From Desulfatiglandales bacterium (GTDB lineage: Bacteria; Desulfobacterota; DSM-4660; Desulfatiglandales; HGW-15): 64,000 bases of DNA. Where the stretch lies: NCBI GenBank assembly GCA_049366815.1, contig JBMNCO010000068.1:30256-94255 (forward strand), given 5' to 3'. The position numbers and the translations under genes were made by a program. This document shows, in pieces, positions 3,440-10,798 of the stretch (its first letter is position 1; the number at the start of each line of letters is the position of its first letter). The notes below the pieces were generated by a model, which did no database searches, was not told where the DNA came from, and saw only the letters and a program-made list of their open reading frames with translations.

Positions 3440-3506
3440 TTCTTCAGCAATGTCCGGACAGGCCGATTTTTCTTTCTCCCCAAGGCGTCTATGTCGAGAG
3501 ATTGAA

Positions 3507-4265
3507 TCAGTAGGCCGACCTGCAGTCAATTCCCAGCCTGGTACACGCATTCGCTATCTTGTTTTGAATACTATGAAAGTATTTGTCGGTGTTCTTTTCG
3601 TCCCACCCTCTTTCTTTATAGATTTTATCTGCGTGTCGGTAATTCATGCGATCGATAATGATGTAGTCGACATTTTCCGGCAGCAATTGGATCAGGTTCT
3701 CGGCCTCAGGAAGGATCGGTGCAATCATCACATAAGTCCTGATACCATTCTGATGCAAAAATTCAATAGATCTCAACCGTTCCGTTATAGAGGGCGCATC
3801 GGGTTCAAATACTTTTCTTATTTCATCATTCGAGGTGGTGATTGAAAGCCCCACTTCGATGTTTTTTGATTTTTTAAACAGGTCCATATCTCGGAGGACC
3901 AGGGAGGATCGTGTCTGAATGACCAGCGGCCAATCGTTCTGCACCAGGATGTCGAGACATTTCCTGCTGAGCAGGTATTCGGCCTCCAGGGGTTGATATG
4001 GGTCACAAACCCCGCTCATCCATACCGTCCCTTTGCTTTTCTTCTTTATTTCTTTACACAGTAAGTCGGATGCATTGATTTTTACATCCACAAAAGAACC
4101 CCAGGGTTCCATATGCCCGGTGAATCTTTTCATAAATCTGGCATAACAATAAGTGCACGCATGTTGACATCCGACATAGGGGTTTATGACGTAGTCATAG
4201 ACTTTTGAGCGAGAAAGAATGGTTTTGGATTGAATTTCCTCTATCTTCATTTTGTAGGGGAGCAC
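3507..4265 (-). CDS. Radical SAM protein, COG1533 / spore-photoproduct-lyase-like family
   Basis: CxxxCxxC cluster motif in VGCQHACTYCYARF near the N-terminus; ~250 aa. Low GC (42/100 in sample 3601-3700). The track start is GTG; an ATG lies at 4250. Confidence 0.8.
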   Translation of the reverse strand: MLPYKMKIEEIQSKTILSRSKVYDYVINPYVGCQHACTYCYARFMKRFTGHMEPWGSFVDVKINASDLLCKEIKKKSKGTVWMSGVCDPYQPLEAEYLLSRKCLDILVQNDWPLVIQTRSSLVLRDMDLFKKSKNIEVGLSITTSNDEIRKVFEPDAPSITERLRSIEFLHQNGIRTYVMIAPILPEAENLIQLLPENVDYIIIDRMNYRHADKIYKERGWDEKNTDKYFHSIQNKIANACTRLGIDCRSAY

Positions 4266-4314
4266 AACATGCTCTCAAGCGTGGGGTGTGGAATCACCCA
4301 TTTTTCTCAACAGA

Positions 4315-4929
4315 TTAAGGGATTACCCAGGATGCATCCATGCGATTGCCATCCCAATGAAATTTCGCCCTGATATTGCCCGTCAGTCTCAGCAGGAGCC
4401 AGTCCATTTCATCGAATCTGCAGACTATGGCGGCGAAATTTTTGCGGGCCATCGAATGATCAAACACTTTGGGTACCTTATCGCGGAGAAAGTCCGGCAG
4501 ACCCGAAGTCCCTTGCTCTGAGGGCGAACCCGGCGGGATTTCGCCGCAGTAATTGATGCGACTTCTCAGGCGCACCTTTTTCCATTGGGATTCAGCCGTC
4601 TCATCATGGGCATGGATCGAAGCGGTTCCGGAAAGGCGCACCTGTATCCACTTTCCGGGATGATAAAATAACCAACTCACATGGGGATTATCAAGGATCT
4701 GTGCAACCTTGGGGGTTCGGGCATCGCAGTGACATACCAATGTCCGTTCATTTTCTGAAAACCCCCTCAGGATCACGGTCCGCACCTCGGGCTTGTTGCC
4801 GTTCATGGTGGTGAGGGCAGGTCGGTAAAAAGGGTGTCTGAAGTTGCGAACCCCCTCATGGACAAGACTCCAGCTCGATTTGAGAACGCCTTCCAGTGTT
4901 GAAATATCTTCTTTTTTCCCAAATATCAT
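4315..4929 (-). CDS. Pyridoxamine 5'-phosphate oxidase (PNPOx)-like FMN-binding family protein
   Basis: 204 aa. Pattern PEVRTVILRGF...LVCHCDARTPKVAQILDNPHVSWLFYHP...QVRLSG resembles the split-barrel PNPOx fold. No SD is visible, because the transposon inverted repeat starts ~15 nt upstream of the ATG. Confidence 0.65.
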   Translation of the reverse strand: MIFGKKEDISTLEGVLKSSWSLVHEGVRNFRHPFYRPALTTMNGNKPEVRTVILRGFSENERTLVCHCDARTPKVAQILDNPHVSWLFYHPGKWIQVRLSGTASIHAHDETAESQWKKVRLRSRINYCGEIPPGSPSEQGTSGLPDFLRDKVPKVFDHSMARKNFAAIVCRFDEMDWLLLRLTGNIRAKFHWDGNRMDASWVIP

Positions 4930-4943
4930 AAGAATAAGAATGA

Positions 4944-4977
4944 GAATGGGGTCACATCTTGATTTGTGAATTGAGAG
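4944..4977. repeat. Left terminal inverted repeat of the Y1-transposase unit
   Basis: 33/34 match to the reverse complement of 5967-6000. Internal hairpin TCACA (4952-4956) / TGTGA (4965-4969). Contains the transposase stop codon. Confidence 0.85.
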
Positions 4978-5917
4978 AATCCTGCTTTCTTTTCCAGTTC
5001 TTGTCTTTCTGCAGTTGCCTCTTTACTCTCCTCACAATATGGCTTACGGCTGAATAGCTCACCTCGAAAAACTTTCCGATCTCCTCGTTCGTAAATGCCC
5101 TCTTCTCCCAAAGGAGATATACCAAGAGATCCCTGTCTTCCCTTTCCTCTCCGTAAAGCCGCCCCATTTCCCTGAACCGATTCAGATCGCGCCCGAGCAA
5201 GGCTGAGGCCCGCATCAGGTATTCATCGGCATCGATCATCCCCACCATTCCCCTTTGCTGGGGCACTTCCCGATCAGGCTTCACCGAAATATATCTTGAT
5301 TTGACCCGTTCCACAAACTCCTCTGTCCCCAACATGAGCCCGTGCCGGAAATCCTCCCAGAGATCCTTTTCCTCCTCTGCGTATCTTTGCACTTTCTCTC
5401 GATATGCCTTTCGAGGATCAGGACCCGAGAAAAGGGAGAGCACCATGTCCATTTTCAGCCACTCGGGGGCCTTGCGCCGGTAGGCATAGGCCGGGTAGCT
5501 GCTCCACTTGTAGTCCATGAGTCGTTTTACCATCCCGGCCCGCAGTGGATTTCGGTGAATATAGCAGGATAGCTCCACGGCGTACGATTCATTTTCCACG
5601 AGAATGCTCTTGAATCGCCCTTGGAAAAGATGGCCCCTTCGGCTATGACGATTATTGAACCTGCGGGTATAGGTCAAACCGAGCCATTGCATGGCCCTTG
5701 ACAAATTGCCAAGGTTTGTTCGCAATAGAAGGTGGTAGTGGTTTGACATCAGCACAAAGGCAAAGACATCTACGTCAAACCGATCACAGGTTTCTCCAAC
5801 GGTCTCCAGGAACAGGCCCTTGTCCTCGTCACCATAAAATATATCCCTTCCCTCGTTTCCGCGGGAAAGGATGTGGTAATAGGCCCCTTCATATTCAATC
5901 CGCCATGGCCTCGCCAT
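4952..5917 (-). CDS. Y1/HUH transposase (IS200-like, Y1_Tnp domain) with a C-terminal DnaA-domain-IV-like HTH
   Basis: N-terminus WRIEYEGAYYHILSRGN. HUH motif in LMSNHYHLLLRT. Catalytic-Tyr helix CYIHRNPLRAG. C-terminus RDLLVYLLWEKRAFTNEEIGKFFEVSYSAVSHIVRRV resembles the DnaA C-terminal DNA-binding domain. Confidence 0.85.
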   Translation of the reverse strand: MARPWRIEYEGAYYHILSRGNEGRDIFYGDEDKGLFLETVGETCDRFDVDVFAFVLMSNHYHLLLRTNLGNLSRAMQWLGLTYTRRFNNRHSRRGHLFQGRFKSILVENESYAVELSCYIHRNPLRAGMVKRLMDYKWSSYPAYAYRRKAPEWLKMDMVLSLFSGPDPRKAYREKVQRYAEEEKDLWEDFRHGLMLGTEEFVERVKSRYISVKPDREVPQQRGMVGMIDADEYLMRASALLGRDLNRFREMGRLYGEEREDRDLLVYLLWEKRAFTNEEIGKFFEVSYSAVSHIVRRVKRQLQKDKNWKRKQDSLNSQIKM

Positions 5918-5966
5918 TCCTTGTCAGCCCTCCTCACGCAAATCGAGACTGCAGACGATATAGCAT

Positions 5967-6000
5967 CTCACAATTCACAAATCAAGATGTGACCCCATTC
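5967..6000. repeat. Right terminal inverted repeat of the Y1-transposase unit
   Basis: Reverse complement of 4944-4977 with one mismatch. Weaker similarity extends ~5 nt outward (ATGnGAATGGGG). Encodes the last 7 codons and the stop of the PfkB kinase gene. Confidence 0.85.
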
Positions 6001-6874
6001 GCATCCTCGCAAGAGCCTCATCCATGCTTCCCTTGAAGGGGCCGGGAGATTCCATCTTGATGGAGACGACGGCGGCCGCAAACCGGAGGCTGTCTTCTAT
6101 GGAATGGTCCAGCCTTCTGGCCAGATATGCGCCGAAGGTCGTATCTCCCCGACCGGTCCTCCCTTCAATACTCCTGTTTGAGAACGGCTCGAAGTATTCC
6201 CGCCCCTCGGCCCTCACCAAAACTCCGTCGGCGCGGGTAACCATCGTCTCAGGGCTTCCCCACGTCTCGACTATGCGGGCTGCCCGGGATAGGTCGGCCG
6301 TCCCCGTCAACAGTTCGGCCTCGACGACGTCAAGCTTCACGGCCTCGGCCATACCTATGATTTCCTTCTTGCGGGGTACGTCTCGAAAATGAATGACACC
6401 GGTAAGGGCGTCGACCTGACGCACGAAGCTCTGTATATCAACGGAAAGATCGTAACCGCGTGTCTTGAGGGCCGACATGAATTCCACGGTGAATTCCCGG
6501 TCCGAAAGACCGGCGAGATGGATGAGGCGTGGTTTTTCGGGAAAGCGGATCTCCGCGTGTTCGAAAGACCCCGCATTCTTCGTTTGAAATATCGCTCTCT
6601 CGTCCGGGTTTTCAGTCCCATGGACGACACGCTGATGGGTGGTTTCCGCAGAGGGCTGGACATAAACATCAATACCTTTTGCCTTGAGCGGGTCGAAAAG
6701 ATGGTAATCGTCGCCGGCCATACGTGTAATCACGGCGATCTTGAGGCCCGGCAGGCATGCGGCCACGGGCGAGTAGAGGGCCGCTCCGCCCGTCTCAATG
6801 CTGGTTTTCCCCCTGAACCTCTGGATCTCGTCGATGCAAATGTGCCCAATAAAAACAATGTCGTAAGGATGCAT
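5975..6874 (-). CDS. PfkB-family carbohydrate/ribokinase-like kinase
   Basis: Start chosen at ATG 6874 (MHPYDIVFIGHICIDE) with a GGAG SD 6 nt upstream; the track start at 6922 is less likely. C-terminal GRGDTTFGAYLA matches the PfkB anion-hole/ATP motif. The C-terminal 7 codons lie in the transposon repeat. Confidence 0.8.
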   Translation of the reverse strand: MHPYDIVFIGHICIDEIQRFRGKTSIETGGAALYSPVAACLPGLKIAVITRMAGDDYHLFDPLKAKGIDVYVQPSAETTHQRVVHGTENPDERAIFQTKNAGSFEHAEIRFPEKPRLIHLAGLSDREFTVEFMSALKTRGYDLSVDIQSFVRQVDALTGVIHFRDVPRKKEIIGMAEAVKLDVVEAELLTGTADLSRAARIVETWGSPETMVTRADGVLVRAEGREYFEPFSNRSIEGRTGRGDTTFGAYLARRLDHSIEDSLRFAAAVVSIKMESPGPFKGSMDEALARMRMGSHLDL

Positions 6875-6931
6875 TATAACTCCTGATACGGGAGCGGCCG
6901 GACATGCTTTCGACCGGCCCATGAGCCTGCC

Positions 6932-7063: not shown

Positions 7064-7800
7064 TCAAAATCCTCAGTCGATAGTTCGTCATTCCGACTGA
7101 AGGCACCAAGCTTCGCACCGAAAATATCAATGACATTGAAATCAAGGGTTTTTAACAGCCAGGTTATTTCCGAGGGCGTATAATACCTTTCGTTGCAATG
7201 GAGTTCTTTTTTATTCCCAAGATCATCTTCGGTATGTAGGGTGTTGTGTTCCCGGAAAGTCATCAAATCGAATGAAATGCCGTCGCATTCTGCGTTCCCT
7301 TCTTTTGTGCTCGAATCAAGGAAATCTTTGACGGAATGGAACAGAGGGAATAAGGCATTCAGGGTGGTCAATATCATTTTTCCTCTCTGAGTCAGGGCAT
7401 TGGAGGCATTCCTCAGAATCTGATAATTCATTTCATCAGTCTCCATCAGCGGGAATCCTCCTTCGCACAACATGATGACCAGGTCAAATTCATGGCGGAA
7501 TGGAAGATTTCTGGCATCATGCTTTTGAAAATGAATTTGCAGATGCTCCATGGATGCCTTTTGTCTTGCTCGTTCTAATTGCGAATCTGAAAGATCGACC
7601 CCCACAACAGTATATCCTCTTTTTGTCAGCTCAATTGCATGTCTGCCTGTCCCACATCCAATATCCAGTATTCTCAAGTTCTTATCATAACCCGTCTCTT
7701 TTTCGATAAAGTCGCATTCACCCATGGTGCCGTGGGTGAAGCACTCATTATCATACCTCATTGCGTAATTTTCAAATAGTTCTTCATACCATTGTTTCAC
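7039..7800 (-). CDS. Class I SAM-dependent methyltransferase
   Basis: Motif [32 protein letters not shown] start with an AAGGG SD. Low GC (44/100 in sample 7081-7180). Confidence 0.85.
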
Positions 7801-8403: not shown

Positions 8404-9366
8404 ATGGTCAAGCTGTTTAAGGAAAACAACCGTCAAGATAACGAGAAGGAAAAAGGCTTCTTCCAGCGATTGCGCCAAGGCCTTTCCAGGACAAGATCCG
8501 GCCTGGCAGGCGGACTGGATGCCGTAATATTCGGCCGAAAGGAAATCAACGGGGACCTGCTCGAAAAACTTGAAGAGATCCTGTTCACATCCGATCTGGG
8601 AGTGGCTACCACACAGGAGCTGATTGATCTGGTTCAGGAAGGCGTCCGCAGAAAGGAACTGGACAAACCCGAGAAACTGAAGGCCATGATGAAGGAACAG
8701 ATCCAGGCCTTTCTCCATGTGCCGGATGCCGAGCATCCCTCGCCCGCAGAGGGGGAACCCCTGGTCATCATGGTCATCGGCGTCAACGGAGTGGGGAAGA
8801 CCACAACCATCGGAAAGGTGGGAAACCACTTCAAGGAACAGGGGAAAAAGGTCATGCTTGTCGCCGCCGACACCTTCAGGGCGGCCGCCGTCGAACAGCT
8901 CGAAATCTGGGGACAAAGGATAGGGGCGGAGGTCGTCAAACAAAAGGAGGGTTCCGACCCCTCTGCAGTGGCCTTTGACGCCGTTTCAGCCGCCCGGGCA
9001 AGGGGCACGGATATCGTCATCATCGACACGGCGGGCCGGCTTCATACCAAGAGCAACTTGATGGATGAGTTGGAGAAGATCCGGAGGGTCACCGGAAAAC
9101 AGCTTCCCGGCGCACCCCACGAGGTGTGGCTGGTACTGGACGCGACAACGGGTCAAAACGCTATTGCCCAGGCCGAGATTTTTCATAAGGAAGTAGGCGT
9201 AACCGGCATTATACTCACCAAGCTGGACGGCACGGCCAAGGGAGGCGTGGTCGTGGGCATCTCCCATCAACTCAAACTGCCCCTCAAGTTTATCGGAATC
9301 GGCGAAAAGATCGACGATCTTCGGCCCTTTAATGCACAGGATTTTGTCAATGCCATTTTTGATTAG
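8404..9366 (+). CDS. ftsY: Signal recognition particle receptor FtsY
   Basis: SRP-GTPase motifs [13 protein letters not shown] (G1), DTAGRLH (G3) and [10 protein letters not shown] (G4). AAGGAG SD 10 nt upstream of the ATG. Confidence 0.95.
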
Positions 9367-9403
9367 ATTCCGGGACCGGGCATCCCAATAGATACGGTCA
9401 ATG

Positions 9404-10798
9404 TCAGGACGCCATATCGAAGATCTTTCCCGGATTCAGGACCATGTTGGGGTCAAAGAGGCGCTTGATTCCCATCTGCAGCCGGAGGCTCTCGGGGGAG
9501 ATCTCAAGGGGCATGAACCTCTTCTTGGCCATGCCTATGCCGTGCTCCCCTGAGATGGTGCCCTTCATGGAAAGGACCCGCTCCAGGATCCCCCTGATCC
9601 CCTCCTCGACACGGCCCATATCCGACTCGCTCCCCGCAGTGATGTTCAAATGGATGTTCCCGTCTCCGGCATGGCCGAAACTGTAAATCTTCATGCCGTA
9701 CGCCCTTTCAAATTCAGGAAGGACCCCCACAAAATCCGCAATCTCCCCGACGGGTACGACCACATCCTCAGGGATATACACGGGCCAGTTCTCCTCGATC
9801 CTGAGAGAGACCTGCCTCCGGATCTCCCAGAGTCTCGCCCGCTTCCGGGAGTCCGGAGCCATGAGCACCTCCTGCGCGCCAAAGCCCATACAGATCTGCC
9901 CGACGGCCTCCATCTCCTTTTCAATGGTCCCCGGGGGGCCGTCCAGTTCGATGAGGAGGAGGGTATCTGTTTCCCCGGTGTCTTGAATCGGAAGCATATC
10001 GCCGACCAGGTCAAGGCAGGCTCGGTCAAGAAACTCCAGGGCACAGGGGACATGGCCCTGCCCCAGGATGGATGTGACGGACTCCATGGCAGCGGAGAGG
10101 TGGGAGAAAAAGGCCACGGAAGTTGTGACGGCCCCGGGTTGGGGCAGGAGTTTCAGGATCAACTTGGTTATGACCCCCAGGGTGCCCTCTGACCCGACGA
10201 GGAGGTGAACCAGGTCATAGCCCACGACCCCCTTTCGCGTCCGGACGCCTGCTGCGATCTTCTCCCCCGAAGGGAGGACGGCTTCCAGACCCAGGACGTA
10301 GTCCCTGGTCGTTCCGTACTTGATGCAGCCGGGCCCGCCGGCATTGGTGGCGGCATTGCCGCCCAGGGACGACGTATCCAGACTCGCCGGGTCCGGGGGA
10401 TAGAAGAGCCCGACATCCTTGGCTGCGTCCTTCAGGTCCAGGTTGATGACCCCGGGTTCAACCACGGCGATCAGGTTCTCCCTTTCAATGGAAAGGATCC
10501 GGTTCATCCTGGCCAGAGAGAGGACGACCCCCCCGTGGACCGGAACAGCTCCGCCCGCCAGGCCCGACCCCGCCCCTCGGGGGGTGACAGGGAACGCATA
10601 TCTGTTTGCAAGACGCAGCAGGGCCTGAATCTGTTCGGTTTCCGTGGCCTCTACGACCAGATCCGGCGTGCGGTTGTCCTCACCGGCGTCCTTGCCAAAC
10701 TCTTCCAGCTTTGACCTTTCCAGGACGACAAGACCTGAACCGACCGCTTTTCTGATTTGTTGGATGATTTCGGGTGTGAAGGCCTTGTAGTCTTTCAT
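9404..10798 (-). CDS. FAD-binding oxidoreductase, GlcD / D-lactate dehydrogenase family
   Basis: PCMH-type FAD-binding domain (PRGAGSGLAGGAVP). C-terminal GTISGEHGIGMAKK motif of the GlcD/DLD family. Confidence 0.85.
   Translation of the reverse strand: MKDYKAFTPEIIQQIRKAVGSGLVVLERSKLEEFGKDAGEDNRTPDLVVEATETEQIQALLRLANRYAFPVTPRGAGSGLAGGAVPVHGGVVLSLARMNRILSIERENLIAVVEPGVINLDLKDAAKDVGLFYPPDPASLDTSSLGGNAATNAGGPGCIKYGTTRDYVLGLEAVLPSGEKIAAGVRTRKGVVGYDLVHLLVGSEGTLGVITKLILKLLPQPGAVTTSVAFFSHLSAAMESVTSILGQGHVPCALEFLDRACLDLVGDMLPIQDTGETDTLLLIELDGPPGTIEKEMEAVGQICMGFGAQEVLMAPDSRKRARLWEIRRQVSLRIEENWPVYIPEDVVVPVGEIADFVGVLPEFERAYGMKIYSFGHAGDGNIHLNITAGSESDMGRVEEGIRGILERVLSMKGTISGEHGIGMAKKRFMPLEISPESLRLQMGIKRLFDPNMVLNPGKIFDMAS

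What the first reader, a model, noticed from the sequence alone, without database searches (positions are those of the whole stretch)
4944..6000. Y1/HUH transposase with a DnaA-like HTH tail in a REP-RAYT-like cradle of 34-bp hairpin-containing inverted repeats
Seen: a single gene is flanked by 33/34-identical inverted repeats. Each repeat can form a TCACA-n8-TGTGA hairpin. The protein has HUH (HYH) and catalytic-Tyr (YIHRNP) motifs plus a C-terminal DnaA-domain-IV-like HTH.

Established: classical IS200/IS605 ends are not inverted repeats, whereas REP-associated tyrosine transposases (RAYTs) sit between inverted REP hairpins.

Seen: the insertion lies exactly between two genes. The right repeat supplies the last 7 codons and the stop of the PfkB kinase (..MGSHLDL*). 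The left repeat ends ~15 nt before the PNPOx-like ATG, which has no SD. No target-site duplication is visible.

Inference: this is a domesticated or recently mobile RAYT-like element that has remodelled the 3' end of one gene and the translation-initiation region of the next.
Basis: partly seen in the sequence, partly recalled or inferred. Interest (0 to 1): 0.55.

Follow-up and report, generated by a model that had tools for sequence, protein, structure and literature searches.

The report
Known TIR-flanked tyrosine transposase (TIRtron)
This is an intact 1,049-bp mobile-element-like unit of an already described but little-studied class (a "TIRtron", encoding a RAYT-related tyrosine transposase fused to a DnaA-type DNA-binding domain) that sits at the very end of a sugar-kinase gene, so it is a new example of a known kind and not a new system.

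Summary
A 321-aa Y1/HUH protein gene (window 4952-5917, minus strand) lies between inverted repeats that match at 33 of 34 positions (30 of 31 in the core). Shuffled sequence gives none.

The interpretation needs re-filing. The repeats are not REP hairpins. They are the terminal inverted repeats of a published class, TIRtron/TIRYT (Di Nocera 2013), which corresponds to TnpA_REP subclass 2.1 (Quentin 2018). The repeat starts GGGGTCAC, an exact fit to the class motif GGGGWSAS. The proposed 5-bp hairpin folds no better than shuffled sequence and is broken in about half of the family.

The predicted structure matches E. coli RAYT in the N-terminal domain and the DnaA DNA-binding domain in the C-terminal domain. 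The same 26-nt repeat bounds full-length (1.04-1.08 kb) and miniature (49-684 bp) elements in genome bins from many phyla, without target duplications.

In this lineage the element looks single-copy. It is fixed at this site in four assemblies and under purifying selection (dN/dS 0.14). The repeat replaces the native tail of the kinase with GSHLDL*.

No empty site was found. One puzzle remains: the element is 3-6 times less diverged at synonymous sites than both neighbouring genes.

Verdict: new member of a known kind, modest interest.

The parts
4948..5996 (.). Whole element (TIRtron), 1,049 bp from GGGG tip to CCCC tip
   Evidence: Bounded by the inverted repeats. Full-length relatives in other genomes are 1,035-1,078 bp between the same tips. 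Low between-lineage divergence starts and stops within 8 nt or less of these tips.
5966..5996 (-). 5' terminal inverted repeat relative to the transposase gene. On the minus strand it reads GGGGTCACATCTTGATTTGTGAATTGTGAGA. It also encodes the last 6 codons and the stop of pfkB.
   Evidence: The tip fits the TIRYT motif GGGGWSAS (PMC3733652). The same 26 nt occur in 157 unique ends from other genomes.
4948..4978 (+). 3' terminal inverted repeat, GGGGTCACATCTTGATTTGTGAATTGAGAGA. It overlaps the last 8 codons and the stop of the transposase gene.
   Evidence: The family C-terminus LNSQFKM* is conserved because the repeat encodes it.
4952..5917 (-). TIRYT / TnpA_REP subclass-2.1-type Y1 (HUH) transposase gene, 321 aa. 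It equals NCBI MFZ7110849.1, 'MAG: transposase [Desulfatiglandales bacterium]'.
   Evidence: Pfam Y1_Tnp E 2.8e-13. Best Foldseek hit is 4er8_A, the E. coli REP-associated tyrosine transposase, E 4.4e-7. 7,399 homologs, mostly exactly 321 aa. Cluster look-up. dN/dS 0.14-0.22.
5732..5740 (-). HUH motif, H60-Y61-H62
   Evidence: Read from the sequence. Invariant in the 36-sequence alignment.
5546..5563 (-). Catalytic tyrosine motif Y119-I-H-R-N-P (the class-2 'Y---NP' signature)
   Evidence: Read from the sequence. Y119, H121, R122, N123 and P124 are invariant. The signature is described in PMC6006769.
5237..5371 (-). Low-confidence, probably flexible linker (aa 183-227) between the nuclease and DNA-binding domains
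   Evidence: pLDDT below 50 for residues 183-227.
4961..5236 (-). C-terminal DnaA-domain-IV-like helix-turn-helix domain (aa 228-319)
   Evidence: Profile hits to DnaA chains 8btg and 3pvp only. Foldseek 3pvp TM 0.87, rmsd 1.5 A over 93 columns. NCBIfam DnaA hits, E about 6e-4. R262, D263, W270, N277, F284, S292 and H293 are invariant.
5975..6874 (-). PfkB-family kinase gene (299-aa form; the mechanical ORF runs to 6922). The tail GSHLDL* (5975-5995) is encoded by the repeat.
   Evidence: Pfam PfkB. Ortholog alignment shows the native end ...LARM plus a variable tail.
4315..4929 (-). PNPOx-like flavoprotein gene, 204 aa. Its native ATG lies 22 nt downstream of the transposase stop.
   Evidence: Pfam Pyridox_oxase_2 and PNPOx_N. 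Orthologs are nearly all 204 aa.
4928..4947 (.). 6-nt microsatellite (ATAAGA x 3.3) abutting the repeat tip. It is length-polymorphic between close relatives.
   Evidence: Tandem Repeats Finder. An 8-9 nt indel separates the window from L001 and L129.

Best explanation
**What it is.** Window 4948-5996 is a complete TIRtron. This is an IS-like unit made of one gene for a TIR-associated tyrosine transposase (TIRYT, also called TnpA_REP subclass 2.1 or RAYT group 1) bounded by 26-31-bp terminal inverted repeats that begin GGGGTCAC.

**The protein.** It has two modules joined by a flexible linker:
- an N-terminal HUH/Y1 single-strand DNA nuclease-ligase (H60-Y-H62, Tyr119);
- a C-terminal DnaA-domain-IV-type helix-turn-helix domain.

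**Effect on the neighbours (shown).** The unit sits at the extreme 3' end of a pfkB-family kinase gene. Its 5' repeat now supplies the last six codons and the stop of the kinase. Its 3' repeat ends 18 nt before the native start of a PNPOx-like gene. All three genes are co-oriented and no terminator is predicted between them.

**How it most likely works (inferred, not shown).**
1. The helix-turn-helix domain reads the almost invariant 26-bp repeat as duplex DNA. The duplex could be ordinary double-stranded DNA or the fold-back stem that the two repeats form on a single strand.
2. This positions the Y1 domain to cut and rejoin a single strand at the GGGG tip.
3. The segment then moves without a target duplication, as in other Y1 elements.

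**Status in this lineage.** The copy looks single-copy and vertically kept. It remains intact and under purifying selection, so it is either still mobility-competent or retained for a host-level role.
For: **Identity.**
- Pfam Y1_Tnp match.
- Best structural match is E. coli RAYT 4er8 (E 4.4e-7), followed by the IS200, IS608 and ISDra2 TnpA structures. The C-terminal domain matches DnaA-DBD 3pvp at TM 0.87.
- A family profile hits only DnaA domain IV among PDB sequences.
- The repeat tip GGGGTCAC fits the published TIRYT motif GGGGWSAS (PMC3733652).
- A Bac_DnaA_C tail with no REPs nearby defines subgroup 2.1.2 (PMC6006769).

**The repeats are real element ends.**
- The same repeat bounds homologs of 83%, 66% and 58% protein identity in unrelated contexts.
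- A genome scan gave at least 118 stretches carrying it, in genome bins from many phyla.
- Conservation begins exactly at G1 and ends near nt 26.
- At least 17 full-length pairs (1,035-1,078 bp) and about 20 miniature pairs (49-684 bp) were found, with unrelated flanks and no direct repeats.
- One genome bin has at least 11 ends in different flanks, mostly at contig ends.

**Local effects.** The kinase tail GSHLDL* occurs only where the element is present. The PNPOx start is native. No promoter or terminator consensus is found in 4700-6300.

**Constraint.** dN/dS is 0.14-0.22 and the repeats are 31/31 identical in four assemblies of the same locus. The recognition-helix residues are invariant across the family.
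Against: - No biochemical or genetic test of any TIRYT was found in the searched library. Binding of the repeat by the helix-turn-helix domain and cleavage at the tip are therefore inference.
- No empty site was found, so the insertion event itself is not demonstrated for this locus.
- The protein cluster at 90% identity or more holds only this locus, and a related protein seen on 24 contigs is always at one locus. This resembles a domesticated RAYT more than an active IS.
- DnaA's base-contacting residues (R-D-H-T-T) are replaced by V-S-Y-S-A. The window's inner repeat 9-mer, CAATTCACA, has 2 mismatches to the DnaA box, a level that roughly a third of random 26-mers (about 35%) reach or better.
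- Phylogenetic placement within subclass 2.1 was not tested against reference sequences.
Confidence: 0.82

Rival explanations
1. It is a domesticated, no-longer-mobile TIRYT. On this view the gene and its two repeats are kept by the host for a cellular function such as DNA processing or regulation at the repeats, as is argued for single-copy RAYTs. The inverted repeats would then be binding sites, not transposon ends in current use.
For: - Only two repeat copies occur in 64 kb.
- The element is at the same site in four assemblies from two lineages.
- dN/dS is 0.14.
- The cluster at 90% identity or more contains only this locus.
- Relative P0027 is at one locus in all 24 contigs read, from many samples.
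- The literature reports low copy number and low duplication for RAYT group 1 / subclass 2.1 (PMC5581495, PMC6006769).
Against: - Family members are multi-copy in some genome bins, and miniature repeat-bounded derivatives are scattered in unrelated flanks.
- The element is 3-6 times less diverged at synonymous sites than both flanking genes, and the boundary sits at the repeat tips. This suggests turnover of the element independent of its flanks.
- No host function is known for this class.
Confidence: 0.3
2. It is a REPtron: a classical RAYT cradled by REP hairpins, which would be the master copy for a genome-wide population of REP or REPIN sequences recognised as single-stranded hairpins.
For: - The closest solved structure is E. 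coli RAYT bound to a REP hairpin.
- NCBIfam REP_Tyr_transpos is the best named family.
- Each repeat contains the short palindrome TCACA-n8-TGTGA.
- REPIN-like doublets of this repeat exist in other genomes, for example L119:5733-5791, a 59-nt perfect palindrome.
Against: - The hairpin energy is about -2.5 kcal/mol and no better than shuffles.
- The stem is broken in about half of related repeats, although the set was collected with the partner positions fixed, so compensatory changes there could not be seen.
- There is no 5' GTAG tag.
- The score is below the RAYT equivalog cutoff (73.2 versus 80).
- The window has no other copies and no REP family.
- The literature separates these repeat-flanked genes from REP-flanked RAYTs.
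Confidence: 0.05
3. It is an ordinary IS200/IS605-family insertion sequence, or the inverted repeat is a chance or duplication artefact around a stray Y1 gene.
For: The Pfam family is 'Transposase IS200 like'. IS200, IS608 and ISDra2 TnpA structures are significant Foldseek hits.
Against: - IS200/IS605 transposases are about 130-150 aa, lack a helix-turn-helix tail, and their elements have subterminal hairpins and no terminal inverted repeats (established knowledge; PMC6006769).
- This protein has 321 aa, the class-2 Y---NP motif and conserved inverted repeats.
- A chance repeat is excluded by 0 matches in 100 shuffles and by the same repeat flanking distant homologs.
Confidence: 0.02

Closest known systems
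TIRtron / TIRYT (TIR-associated tyrosine transposase), Di Nocera, De Gregorio & Rocco 2013, BMC Genomics 14:522 (PMC3733652)
   Same: A RAYT-like Y1 gene flanked by long terminal inverted repeats instead of REPs. The repeat tip fits GGGGWSAS exactly (GGGGTCAC). The 3' repeat overlaps the gene end (their '3'ov'). Related repeats occur as singles, dimers and groups in some genomes.
   Different: None in kind. This is a Desulfatiglandales example with a 26-nt repeat variant (GGGGTCAnATCTTGAwTwGTGAATwr).
TnpA_REP subclass 2.1, subgroup 2.1.2 (Quentin et al. 2018, BMC Genomics 19:475, PMC6006769), equal to RAYT Group 1 (Bertels et al. 2017, PMC5581495)
   Same: Long class-2 Y1 protein with the Y---NP motif. 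C-terminal Bac_DnaA_C-like helix-turn-helix. No REP nearby. Patchy distribution across phyla. Low copy number.
   Different: Placement is by features, not by phylogeny. Quentin et al. compared only the GGGG tip with the DnaA box. Here the inner 9-mer of the repeat fits TTWTNCACA with 1 mismatch or fewer in 92 of 158 variants, but this is only about p 0.05 at family level, and the window's own copy has 2 mismatches.
E. coli TnpA_REP / RAYT with REP-BIME sequences (PDB 4ER8; PMC3479197)
   Same: Closest solved fold for the nuclease domain. The gene is cradled by inverted copies of its recognition sequence. Single-copy behaviour.
   Different: There is no GTAG-tagged REP hairpin. The protein has an extra DnaA-type helix-turn-helix domain and is about twice as long. 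Its score is below the RAYT equivalog cutoff.
IS200/IS605 TnpA (IS608, ISDra2)
   Same: HUH/Y1 catalytic core. No target-site duplication.
   Different: Those elements have asymmetric ends with subterminal hairpins and no inverted repeats, and their proteins are 130-150 aa with no helix-turn-helix.
DnaA domain IV (for example M. tuberculosis DnaA-DBD bound to box2 DNA, PDB 3PVP)
   Same: The C-terminal 92 residues adopt the same fold (TM 0.87). The equivalent of the minor-groove Arg (R262) and the His of the recognition helix (H293) are invariant.
   Different: The DnaA signature R-D-H-T-T is replaced by V-S-Y-S-A, so the sequence specificity is probably different. There is no AAA+ domain.

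Membership tests
TIRtron / TIRYT (Di Nocera 2013) | Encoded protein is RAYT-like, with HUH and catalytic Tyr motifs | tested here: met
   H60-Y-H62 and Y119IHRNP are present and invariant in the family. Pfam Y1_Tnp. Best fold match is 4er8, a RAYT.
TIRtron / TIRYT (Di Nocera 2013) | Gene flanked by long terminal inverted repeats unrelated to GTAG REPs | tested here: met
   31-42-nt inverted repeat with 30/31 in the core. No GTAG tag. The hairpin is not significant.
TIRtron / TIRYT (Di Nocera 2013) | Repeat carries the shared motif GGGGWSAS (majority subgroup) | tested here: met
   Both tips read GGGGTCAC. The motif is quoted.
TnpA_REP subclass 2.1.2 (Quentin 2018) / RAYT Group 1 (Bertels 2017) | Class-2 Y-motif Y---NP | tested here: met
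   Y119-I-H-R-N123-P124.
TnpA_REP subclass 2.1.2 (Quentin 2018) / RAYT Group 1 (Bertels 2017) | C-terminal helix-turn-helix domain related to Bac_DnaA_C (or HTH_23/28) | tested here: met
   Profile hits only DnaA domain IV in the PDB, E 0.036 and 0.07. Foldseek 3pvp TM 0.87. NCBIfam DnaA, E about 6e-4. Pfam Bac_DnaA_C itself did not reach E 0.01.
TnpA_REP subclass 2.1.2 (Quentin 2018) / RAYT Group 1 (Bertels 2017) | No REP-like secondary-structure repeats near the gene | tested here: met
   The window holds no repeat family other than the two inverted repeats. The hairpin is no better than shuffles.
TnpA_REP subclass 2.1.2 (Quentin 2018) / RAYT Group 1 (Bertels 2017) | Phylogenetic or MCL placement with the reference members of the subclass | not tested
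Classical RAYT / REPtron (Nunvar 2010; E. coli TnpA_REP) | Flanked by REP hairpins with a conserved 5' GTAG tetranucleotide | tested here: not met
   No GTAG. The 5-bp stem has about -2.5 kcal/mol, z about 0. The stem positions vary so that the pair is broken in 36-48% of related repeats; partner positions were fixed by the search pattern.
Classical RAYT / REPtron (Nunvar 2010; E. coli TnpA_REP) | Protein reaches NCBIfam NF047646 REP_Tyr_transpos equivalog cutoff | tested here: not met
   73.2 bits against a cutoff of 80.
Classical RAYT / REPtron (Nunvar 2010; E. coli TnpA_REP) | High-copy REP or REPIN population in the same genome | not testable with these tools
   Only 64 kb of the genome is held, and it contains 2 copies. 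The source genome bin did not appear among the loci returned by the genome scan.
IS200/IS605 insertion sequences | Short TnpA (about 130-150 aa), asymmetric ends with subterminal hairpins, no terminal inverted repeats | tested here: not met
   The protein has 321 aa in two domains and the element has conserved inverted repeats.

The most novel reading that the evidence does not exclude
TIRYT elements of this type may be a currently active and essentially unrecognised insertion-sequence family, not domesticated RAYTs, with a mechanism unlike IS200/IS605. In that mechanism a DnaA-domain-IV helix-turn-helix reads the 26-bp repeat as a duplex, possibly the fold-back stem formed by the two repeats on single-stranded DNA, and places the Y1 nuclease at the GGGG tip. 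Several observations made here would then have one cause: the miniature repeat-repeat derivatives, the stuttered partial tips outside 8% of ends, and the site-precise turnover that leaves this copy 3-6 times younger at synonymous sites than its flanks.
Probability: 0.25. Interest if true: 0.6.

Novelty: new member of a known kind. Interest (0 to 1): 0.3.

Why it matters
For annotating this genome, the result is modest. It explains a 'transposase' between two metabolic genes. It shows that the last six codons of the kinase are transposon-derived. It also shows that the downstream flavoprotein gene lost its native upstream region.

More broadly, the TIRYT class has been described in only two comparative papers and never tested experimentally. 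One of those papers states that formal evidence for autonomous mobility is lacking.

The comparative data gathered here help on that point:
- a 26-nt repeat that is nearly invariant across phyla while the proteins diverge to about 55% identity;
- multi-copy genome bins;
- miniature derivatives bounded by the same repeat;
- no target duplication.

Together these give concrete substrates (repeat, tip, protein domains) for a first biochemical test of how a Y1 nuclease works with true inverted repeats and a duplex-DNA-binding domain.

Tried and rejected
1. **Empty site.** I searched for orthologs of the kinase and of the PNPOx-like gene.
   - Relatives at 83% identity or less have a different gene order.
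   - Every closer relative (L001, L129, L131) carries the element.
   - Two exact-pattern scans of the JGI metagenome collection found nothing.

2. **Hairpin.** Folding gives no signal. The stem is frequently broken in relatives. I rejected it as a functional feature.

3. **Own promoter or a terminator after pfkB.** The consensus scan found none. A hand-drawn TTGATT-N17-TATATC promoter is too weak to claim.

4. **DnaA-box idea.**
   - The inner repeat 9-mer fits TTWTNCACA with 1 mismatch or fewer in 92 of 158 variants.
   - A random 26-mer does so 4.8% of the time, and all these repeats are homologous, so they count as one observation.
   - The window's own 9-mer has 2 mismatches.
   - DnaA's base-contact residues are not conserved.
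   - I kept this only as a hypothesis.

5. **Palindromic-target idea.** Only 4 of 33 independent repeat pairs, including the window, have 4 nt or more of inverted flank. That is significant (p about 0.002) but a minority. It is not a general rule.

6. **Multi-copy test through identical proteins.** P0027 appears on 24 contigs, but all are one locus from many samples. The exact window protein is on one contig only.

7. **Flank preference by end type.** My classification of ends into 5' and 3' types left 116 of 153 unclassified. No conclusion was drawn.
Full report
**1. The observation**

Window 4937-4978 and 5966-6007 form a 42-nt inverted repeat, 93% complementary, with 987 nt between the arms. 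The 31-nt core (4948-4978 and 5966-5996) matches at 30 of 31, and no match appeared in 100 dinucleotide-preserving shuffles.

It is the only strong repeat in the 64-kb window. Neither the repeat nor its 18-nt core occurs anywhere else in the window.

Between the arms lies one ORF, 4952-5917 on the minus strand, 321 aa.
- It matches Pfam Y1_Tnp at E 2.8e-13.
- It carries H60-Y-H62 and Y119-IHRNP.
- Its best NCBIfam match is REP_Tyr_transpos, at 73.2 bits against a cutoff of 80.
- Weak DnaA hits cover aa 262-320.

The neighbours are a PfkB-family kinase gene ending at 5975 inside the right arm, and a PNPOx-like gene starting at 4929.

The only part of the observation that does not hold up is the hairpin. 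The TCACA-n8-TGTGA stem is worth about -2.5 kcal/mol and folds no better than shuffled sequence.

**2. What the repeats are**

Homologs of the protein are very numerous: 7,399 hits, most of them exactly 321 aa, mainly from Desulfobacterota genome bins. Homologs at 83%, 66% and 58% identity, in unrelated gene contexts, are flanked by essentially the same repeat.

| Locus | Repeat |
|---|---|
| L002 | GGGGTCAAATCTTGATTTGTGAATTG |
| L132 | GGGGTCACATCTTGATTTGTGAATTAAG (28/28 perfect) |
| L003-L006 | GGGGTCAAATCTTGAATAGTGAATAA |

I scanned one genome per species with GGGGTCANATNTTGANTNGTGAAT. The hits come from Desulfobacterota, Vicinamibacteria, Stahlbacteria, Bacteroidota, Planctomycetota, Bacillota, Thermotogaceae, Burkholderiales and other genome bins.

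In 157 unique ends, conservation begins abruptly at the first G and decays after about nt 26. Outside the tip there is only a weak preference: T at -1 (54%), A at -2 and -3, and purines at -8 to -4.

Convergent pairs of the repeat fall into two classes:
- at least 17 full-length units of 1,035-1,078 bp, where the window's is 1,049 bp;
- about 20 miniature units of 49-684 bp.

The miniature class includes a 92-bp family found five times in different flanks, and a perfect 59-nt doublet at L119:5733-5791.

Flanks are unrelated between copies and show no direct repeats. One genome bin (JAZDOU01) has at least six 5' ends and five 3' ends of one near-identical element in different flanks, mostly at contig ends. 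That is the signature of a multi-copy element that breaks assemblies.

The repeats are therefore genuine element termini shared by autonomous and non-autonomous units.

**3. The hairpin is not a conserved feature**

In the 157 ends, position 8 (C in the window, paired with G19) is A, G or T in 48%. Position 18 (T, paired with A9) is A or C in 36%. The 5-bp stem is thus often reduced to 3-4 bp.

One caveat applies. My search pattern fixed positions 19 and 9, so compensatory changes at those partners could not have been seen.

**4. The protein**

AlphaFold2 with a 36-sequence alignment gives mean pLDDT 78.7. There are two confident domains and a disordered linker at aa 183-227.

Foldseek against the PDB gave these matches:
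- **N-terminal domain.** The best hit is 4er8_A, the E. coli REP-associated tyrosine transposase bound to a REP hairpin (E 4.4e-7, target TM 0.73). IS200, IS608 and ISDra2 TnpA follow.
- **C-terminal domain.** It superposes on the M. tuberculosis DnaA DNA-binding domain bound to box2 DNA (3pvp, TM 0.87-0.88, rmsd 1.5 A over 93 columns).

A family profile searched against all PDB sequences hits only DnaA domain IV, weakly (E 0.036 and 0.07). In that alignment DnaA's R-D-H-T-T-V-x-H becomes V-S-Y-S-A-V-S-H. The Arg equivalent to the minor-groove Arg (R262) and the final His (H293) are invariant in the family.

**5. What is already known**

This architecture is published.

Di Nocera, De Gregorio and Rocco (2013, PMC3733652) named RAYT-like genes flanked by long terminal inverted repeats 'TIRtrons' and their proteins 'TIRYTs'.
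- They noted a shared repeat motif, GGGGWSAS. The window's GGGGTCAC fits it exactly.
- They noted that repeats can overlap the gene ends.
- They noted that some genomes hold moderately abundant families of single, dimeric or grouped repeats.

Quentin et al. (2018, PMC6006769) made several further points.
- They placed most TIRYTs in TnpA_REP subclass 2.1.
- In that subclass, subgroup 2.1.2 carries a Bac_DnaA_C-like or HTH_23/28 tail and has no REPs nearby.
- They equated the subclass with RAYT Group 1 of Bertels et al. (2017, PMC5581495).
- They also stated that formal evidence for autonomous mobility is lacking.

Searches of the held library for later work on this class found nothing further.

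**6. The local consequences**

Kinase orthologs without the element end ...LARM followed by a variable 1-12-residue tail, for example RRG*, R* or ARE*. The tail (M)GSHLDL* occurs only in loci that carry the element. From its GGGG tip, the repeat therefore supplies six codons and the stop, replacing the native end.

PNPOx orthologs are almost all 204 aa. The ATG at 4929 is therefore native, and only the region upstream of it was replaced. That region has no Shine-Dalgarno-like purine run.

No sigma-70-type promoter or intrinsic terminator is predicted in 4700-6300. The three co-oriented genes may be co-transcribed, but that is inference.

**7. History at this locus**

The window's protein is NCBI MFZ7110849.1, from a Desulfatiglandales genome bin (108-kb contig). 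Its 90%-identity cluster has six members, all consistent with this one locus.

The pfkB-TIRYT-PNPOx arrangement occurs in four assemblies forming two lineages: A (window and L001) and B (L129 and L131). No empty site was found. Relatives at 83% identity or less have different gene orders, and two metagenome pattern scans were empty.

Between the two lineages:

| Region | dS | dN/dS |
|---|---|---|
| pfkB | 0.21 | 0.14-0.19 |
| PNPOx-like gene | 0.37 | 0.21-0.22 |
| transposase gene | 0.065 | 0.14 |

- The difference in synonymous divergence between the transposase gene and its flanks is significant (Fisher p 5e-8).
- Both repeats are 31/31 identical.
- Divergence resumes within 8 nt or less of each tip.

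The protein is thus under purifying selection, and the element is 'younger' than its flanks with boundaries at the repeat tips. I cannot explain this with confidence. The candidates are precise replacement or re-insertion at a preferred site, gene conversion from copies I cannot see, or unusually diverged flanks. No genome-wide baseline was available because the lineage-B contigs are short.

**8. Mechanism**

Shown:
- a two-domain protein, Y1 nuclease plus DnaA-type helix-turn-helix;
- a 26-nt repeat that is almost invariant while the proteins diverge to about 55% identity, including the non-coding 5' copy;
- an invariant recognition helix;
- movement of repeat-bounded units without target duplication in related genomes.

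Inferred:
- The helix-turn-helix reads the repeat as duplex DNA and positions the Y1 domain to cut at the GGGG tip.
- True inverted repeats look different on a single strand. A fold-back stem formed by the two repeats would present duplex repeat to the helix-turn-helix, with both cleavage sites on one strand at the base of the stem. That is compatible with the known chemistry of Y1 transposases. The perfect-palindrome miniature doublets would be ideal substrates.

The inner repeat 9-mer resembles the DnaA box TTWTNCACA.
- It is TTATTCACA in 11 variants and has 1 mismatch or fewer in 92 of 158.
- The family-level chance of that is about 0.05.
- The window's own 9-mer (CAATTCACA) has two mismatches.
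- The base-contact residues differ from DnaA's.
- I therefore treat this as a lead only.

**9. Verdict**

However, it belongs to the known TIRtron/TIRYT class, not to a REP-RAYT system. Whether this copy is domesticated or still mobile remains open.

It is a new member of a known kind. Interest is modest. It is raised somewhat because the class is experimentally untouched and the comparative data here provide testable substrates.

Noticed in passing
L115:~950-971, L076:~4524-4555, L097:~6312-6342, L093:4440-4461 and 4930-4950, L056:5993-6064, L064:~7380-7407, L111:~277-307, L105, L027, L090, L107: 'Stuttered' ends. 13 of 157 unique repeat ends carry one or two partial tandem copies just outside the tip, each made of a few flank nucleotides plus the first 7-17 nt of the repeat. 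An example is gagacGGGGTCACATCTATAgagacGGGGTCAC... GGGGTC within 30 nt would be expected by chance in fewer than 1% of ends. This may be a footprint of abortive cleavage and rejoining or of slippage at the tip.
   Followed up: partly
window 4948-5996 compared with L129 and L131 (the same locus in a second lineage): The element is 3-6 times less diverged at synonymous sites (dS 0.065) than the flanking pfkB (0.21) and PNPOx (0.37) genes. The change occurs within 8 nt or less of the repeat tips, and both repeats are 31/31 identical. No donor copies are known.
   Followed up: partly
L119:5733-5791; L016:3098-3177; L015:1903-1951; 92-bp family at L045:7475-7566, L049:1039-1130, L089:4532-4623, L109:6388-6479, L113:7051-7142: Miniature elements, MITE- or REPIN-like, of 49-684 bp, made of two copies of the same repeat in inverted orientation. 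Their flanks are unrelated. Some are perfect palindromes. L113 carries a full-length element and a 92-bp miniature on one contig.
   Followed up: partly
L017, L031, L040, L055, L060, L066, L085, L086, L100, L118, L123 (genome bin JAZDOU01): At least 11 ends of one near-identical element lie in different flanks within one genome bin, mostly 100-150 nt from contig ends. The 6-8 nt outside the tips are similar between copies (5' side ..GAAGGCCT|, 3' side ..GGCCAAC|), which hints at a target preference.
   Followed up: partly
window 4928-4947: A 6-nt microsatellite (ATAAGA x 3.3) abuts the repeat tip and overlaps the PNPOx start codon region. Close relatives differ here by an 8-9 nt indel.
   Followed up: partly
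window 4944-4947 / 5997-6000; L008:6350-6454; L065:4547-5581; L072:5111-5566: In 4 of 33 independent repeat pairs the inverted symmetry extends 4-6 nt beyond the conserved tip: GAAT|..|ATTC three times and GAGAAA|..|TTTCTC once. With shuffled partners the expectation is 0.75 pairs (p about 0.002). The cause could be insertion at the centre of short palindromes or a subfamily with longer repeats.
   Followed up: partly
L002:1-10536: A transposon-rich contig holding two full TIRYT elements (3490-4540 and 8960-10026) that share 6 nt of left flank (AGAACT). It also holds a further Y1_Tnp-like ORF, an IS110-type fragment, a Mu-transposase-C-like gene and a DDE_3 transposase.
   Followed up: no
5' ends of related elements, e.g. 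L010:303, L034:3234, L051:849, L076:4524, L094:524, L111:277, L117:7175: A perfect TTGACA hexamer lies within about 25 nt inside the repeat in 17 of 158 ends. Protein bound at the repeat could therefore overlap the element's own promoter and autoregulate it. The window's copy lacks this hexamer.
   Followed up: no
window 6875-6922: The mechanical 315-aa pfkB ORF starts 16 codons upstream of the start used by nearly all orthologs (M-x-PYDIVF, 292-299 aa). The true start is probably the ATG at 6874.
   Followed up: partly
L026:675-2458: A longer variant of 1,784 bp whose inverted arms extend to 92 nt at 79% complementarity around the same repeat tip.
   Followed up: no
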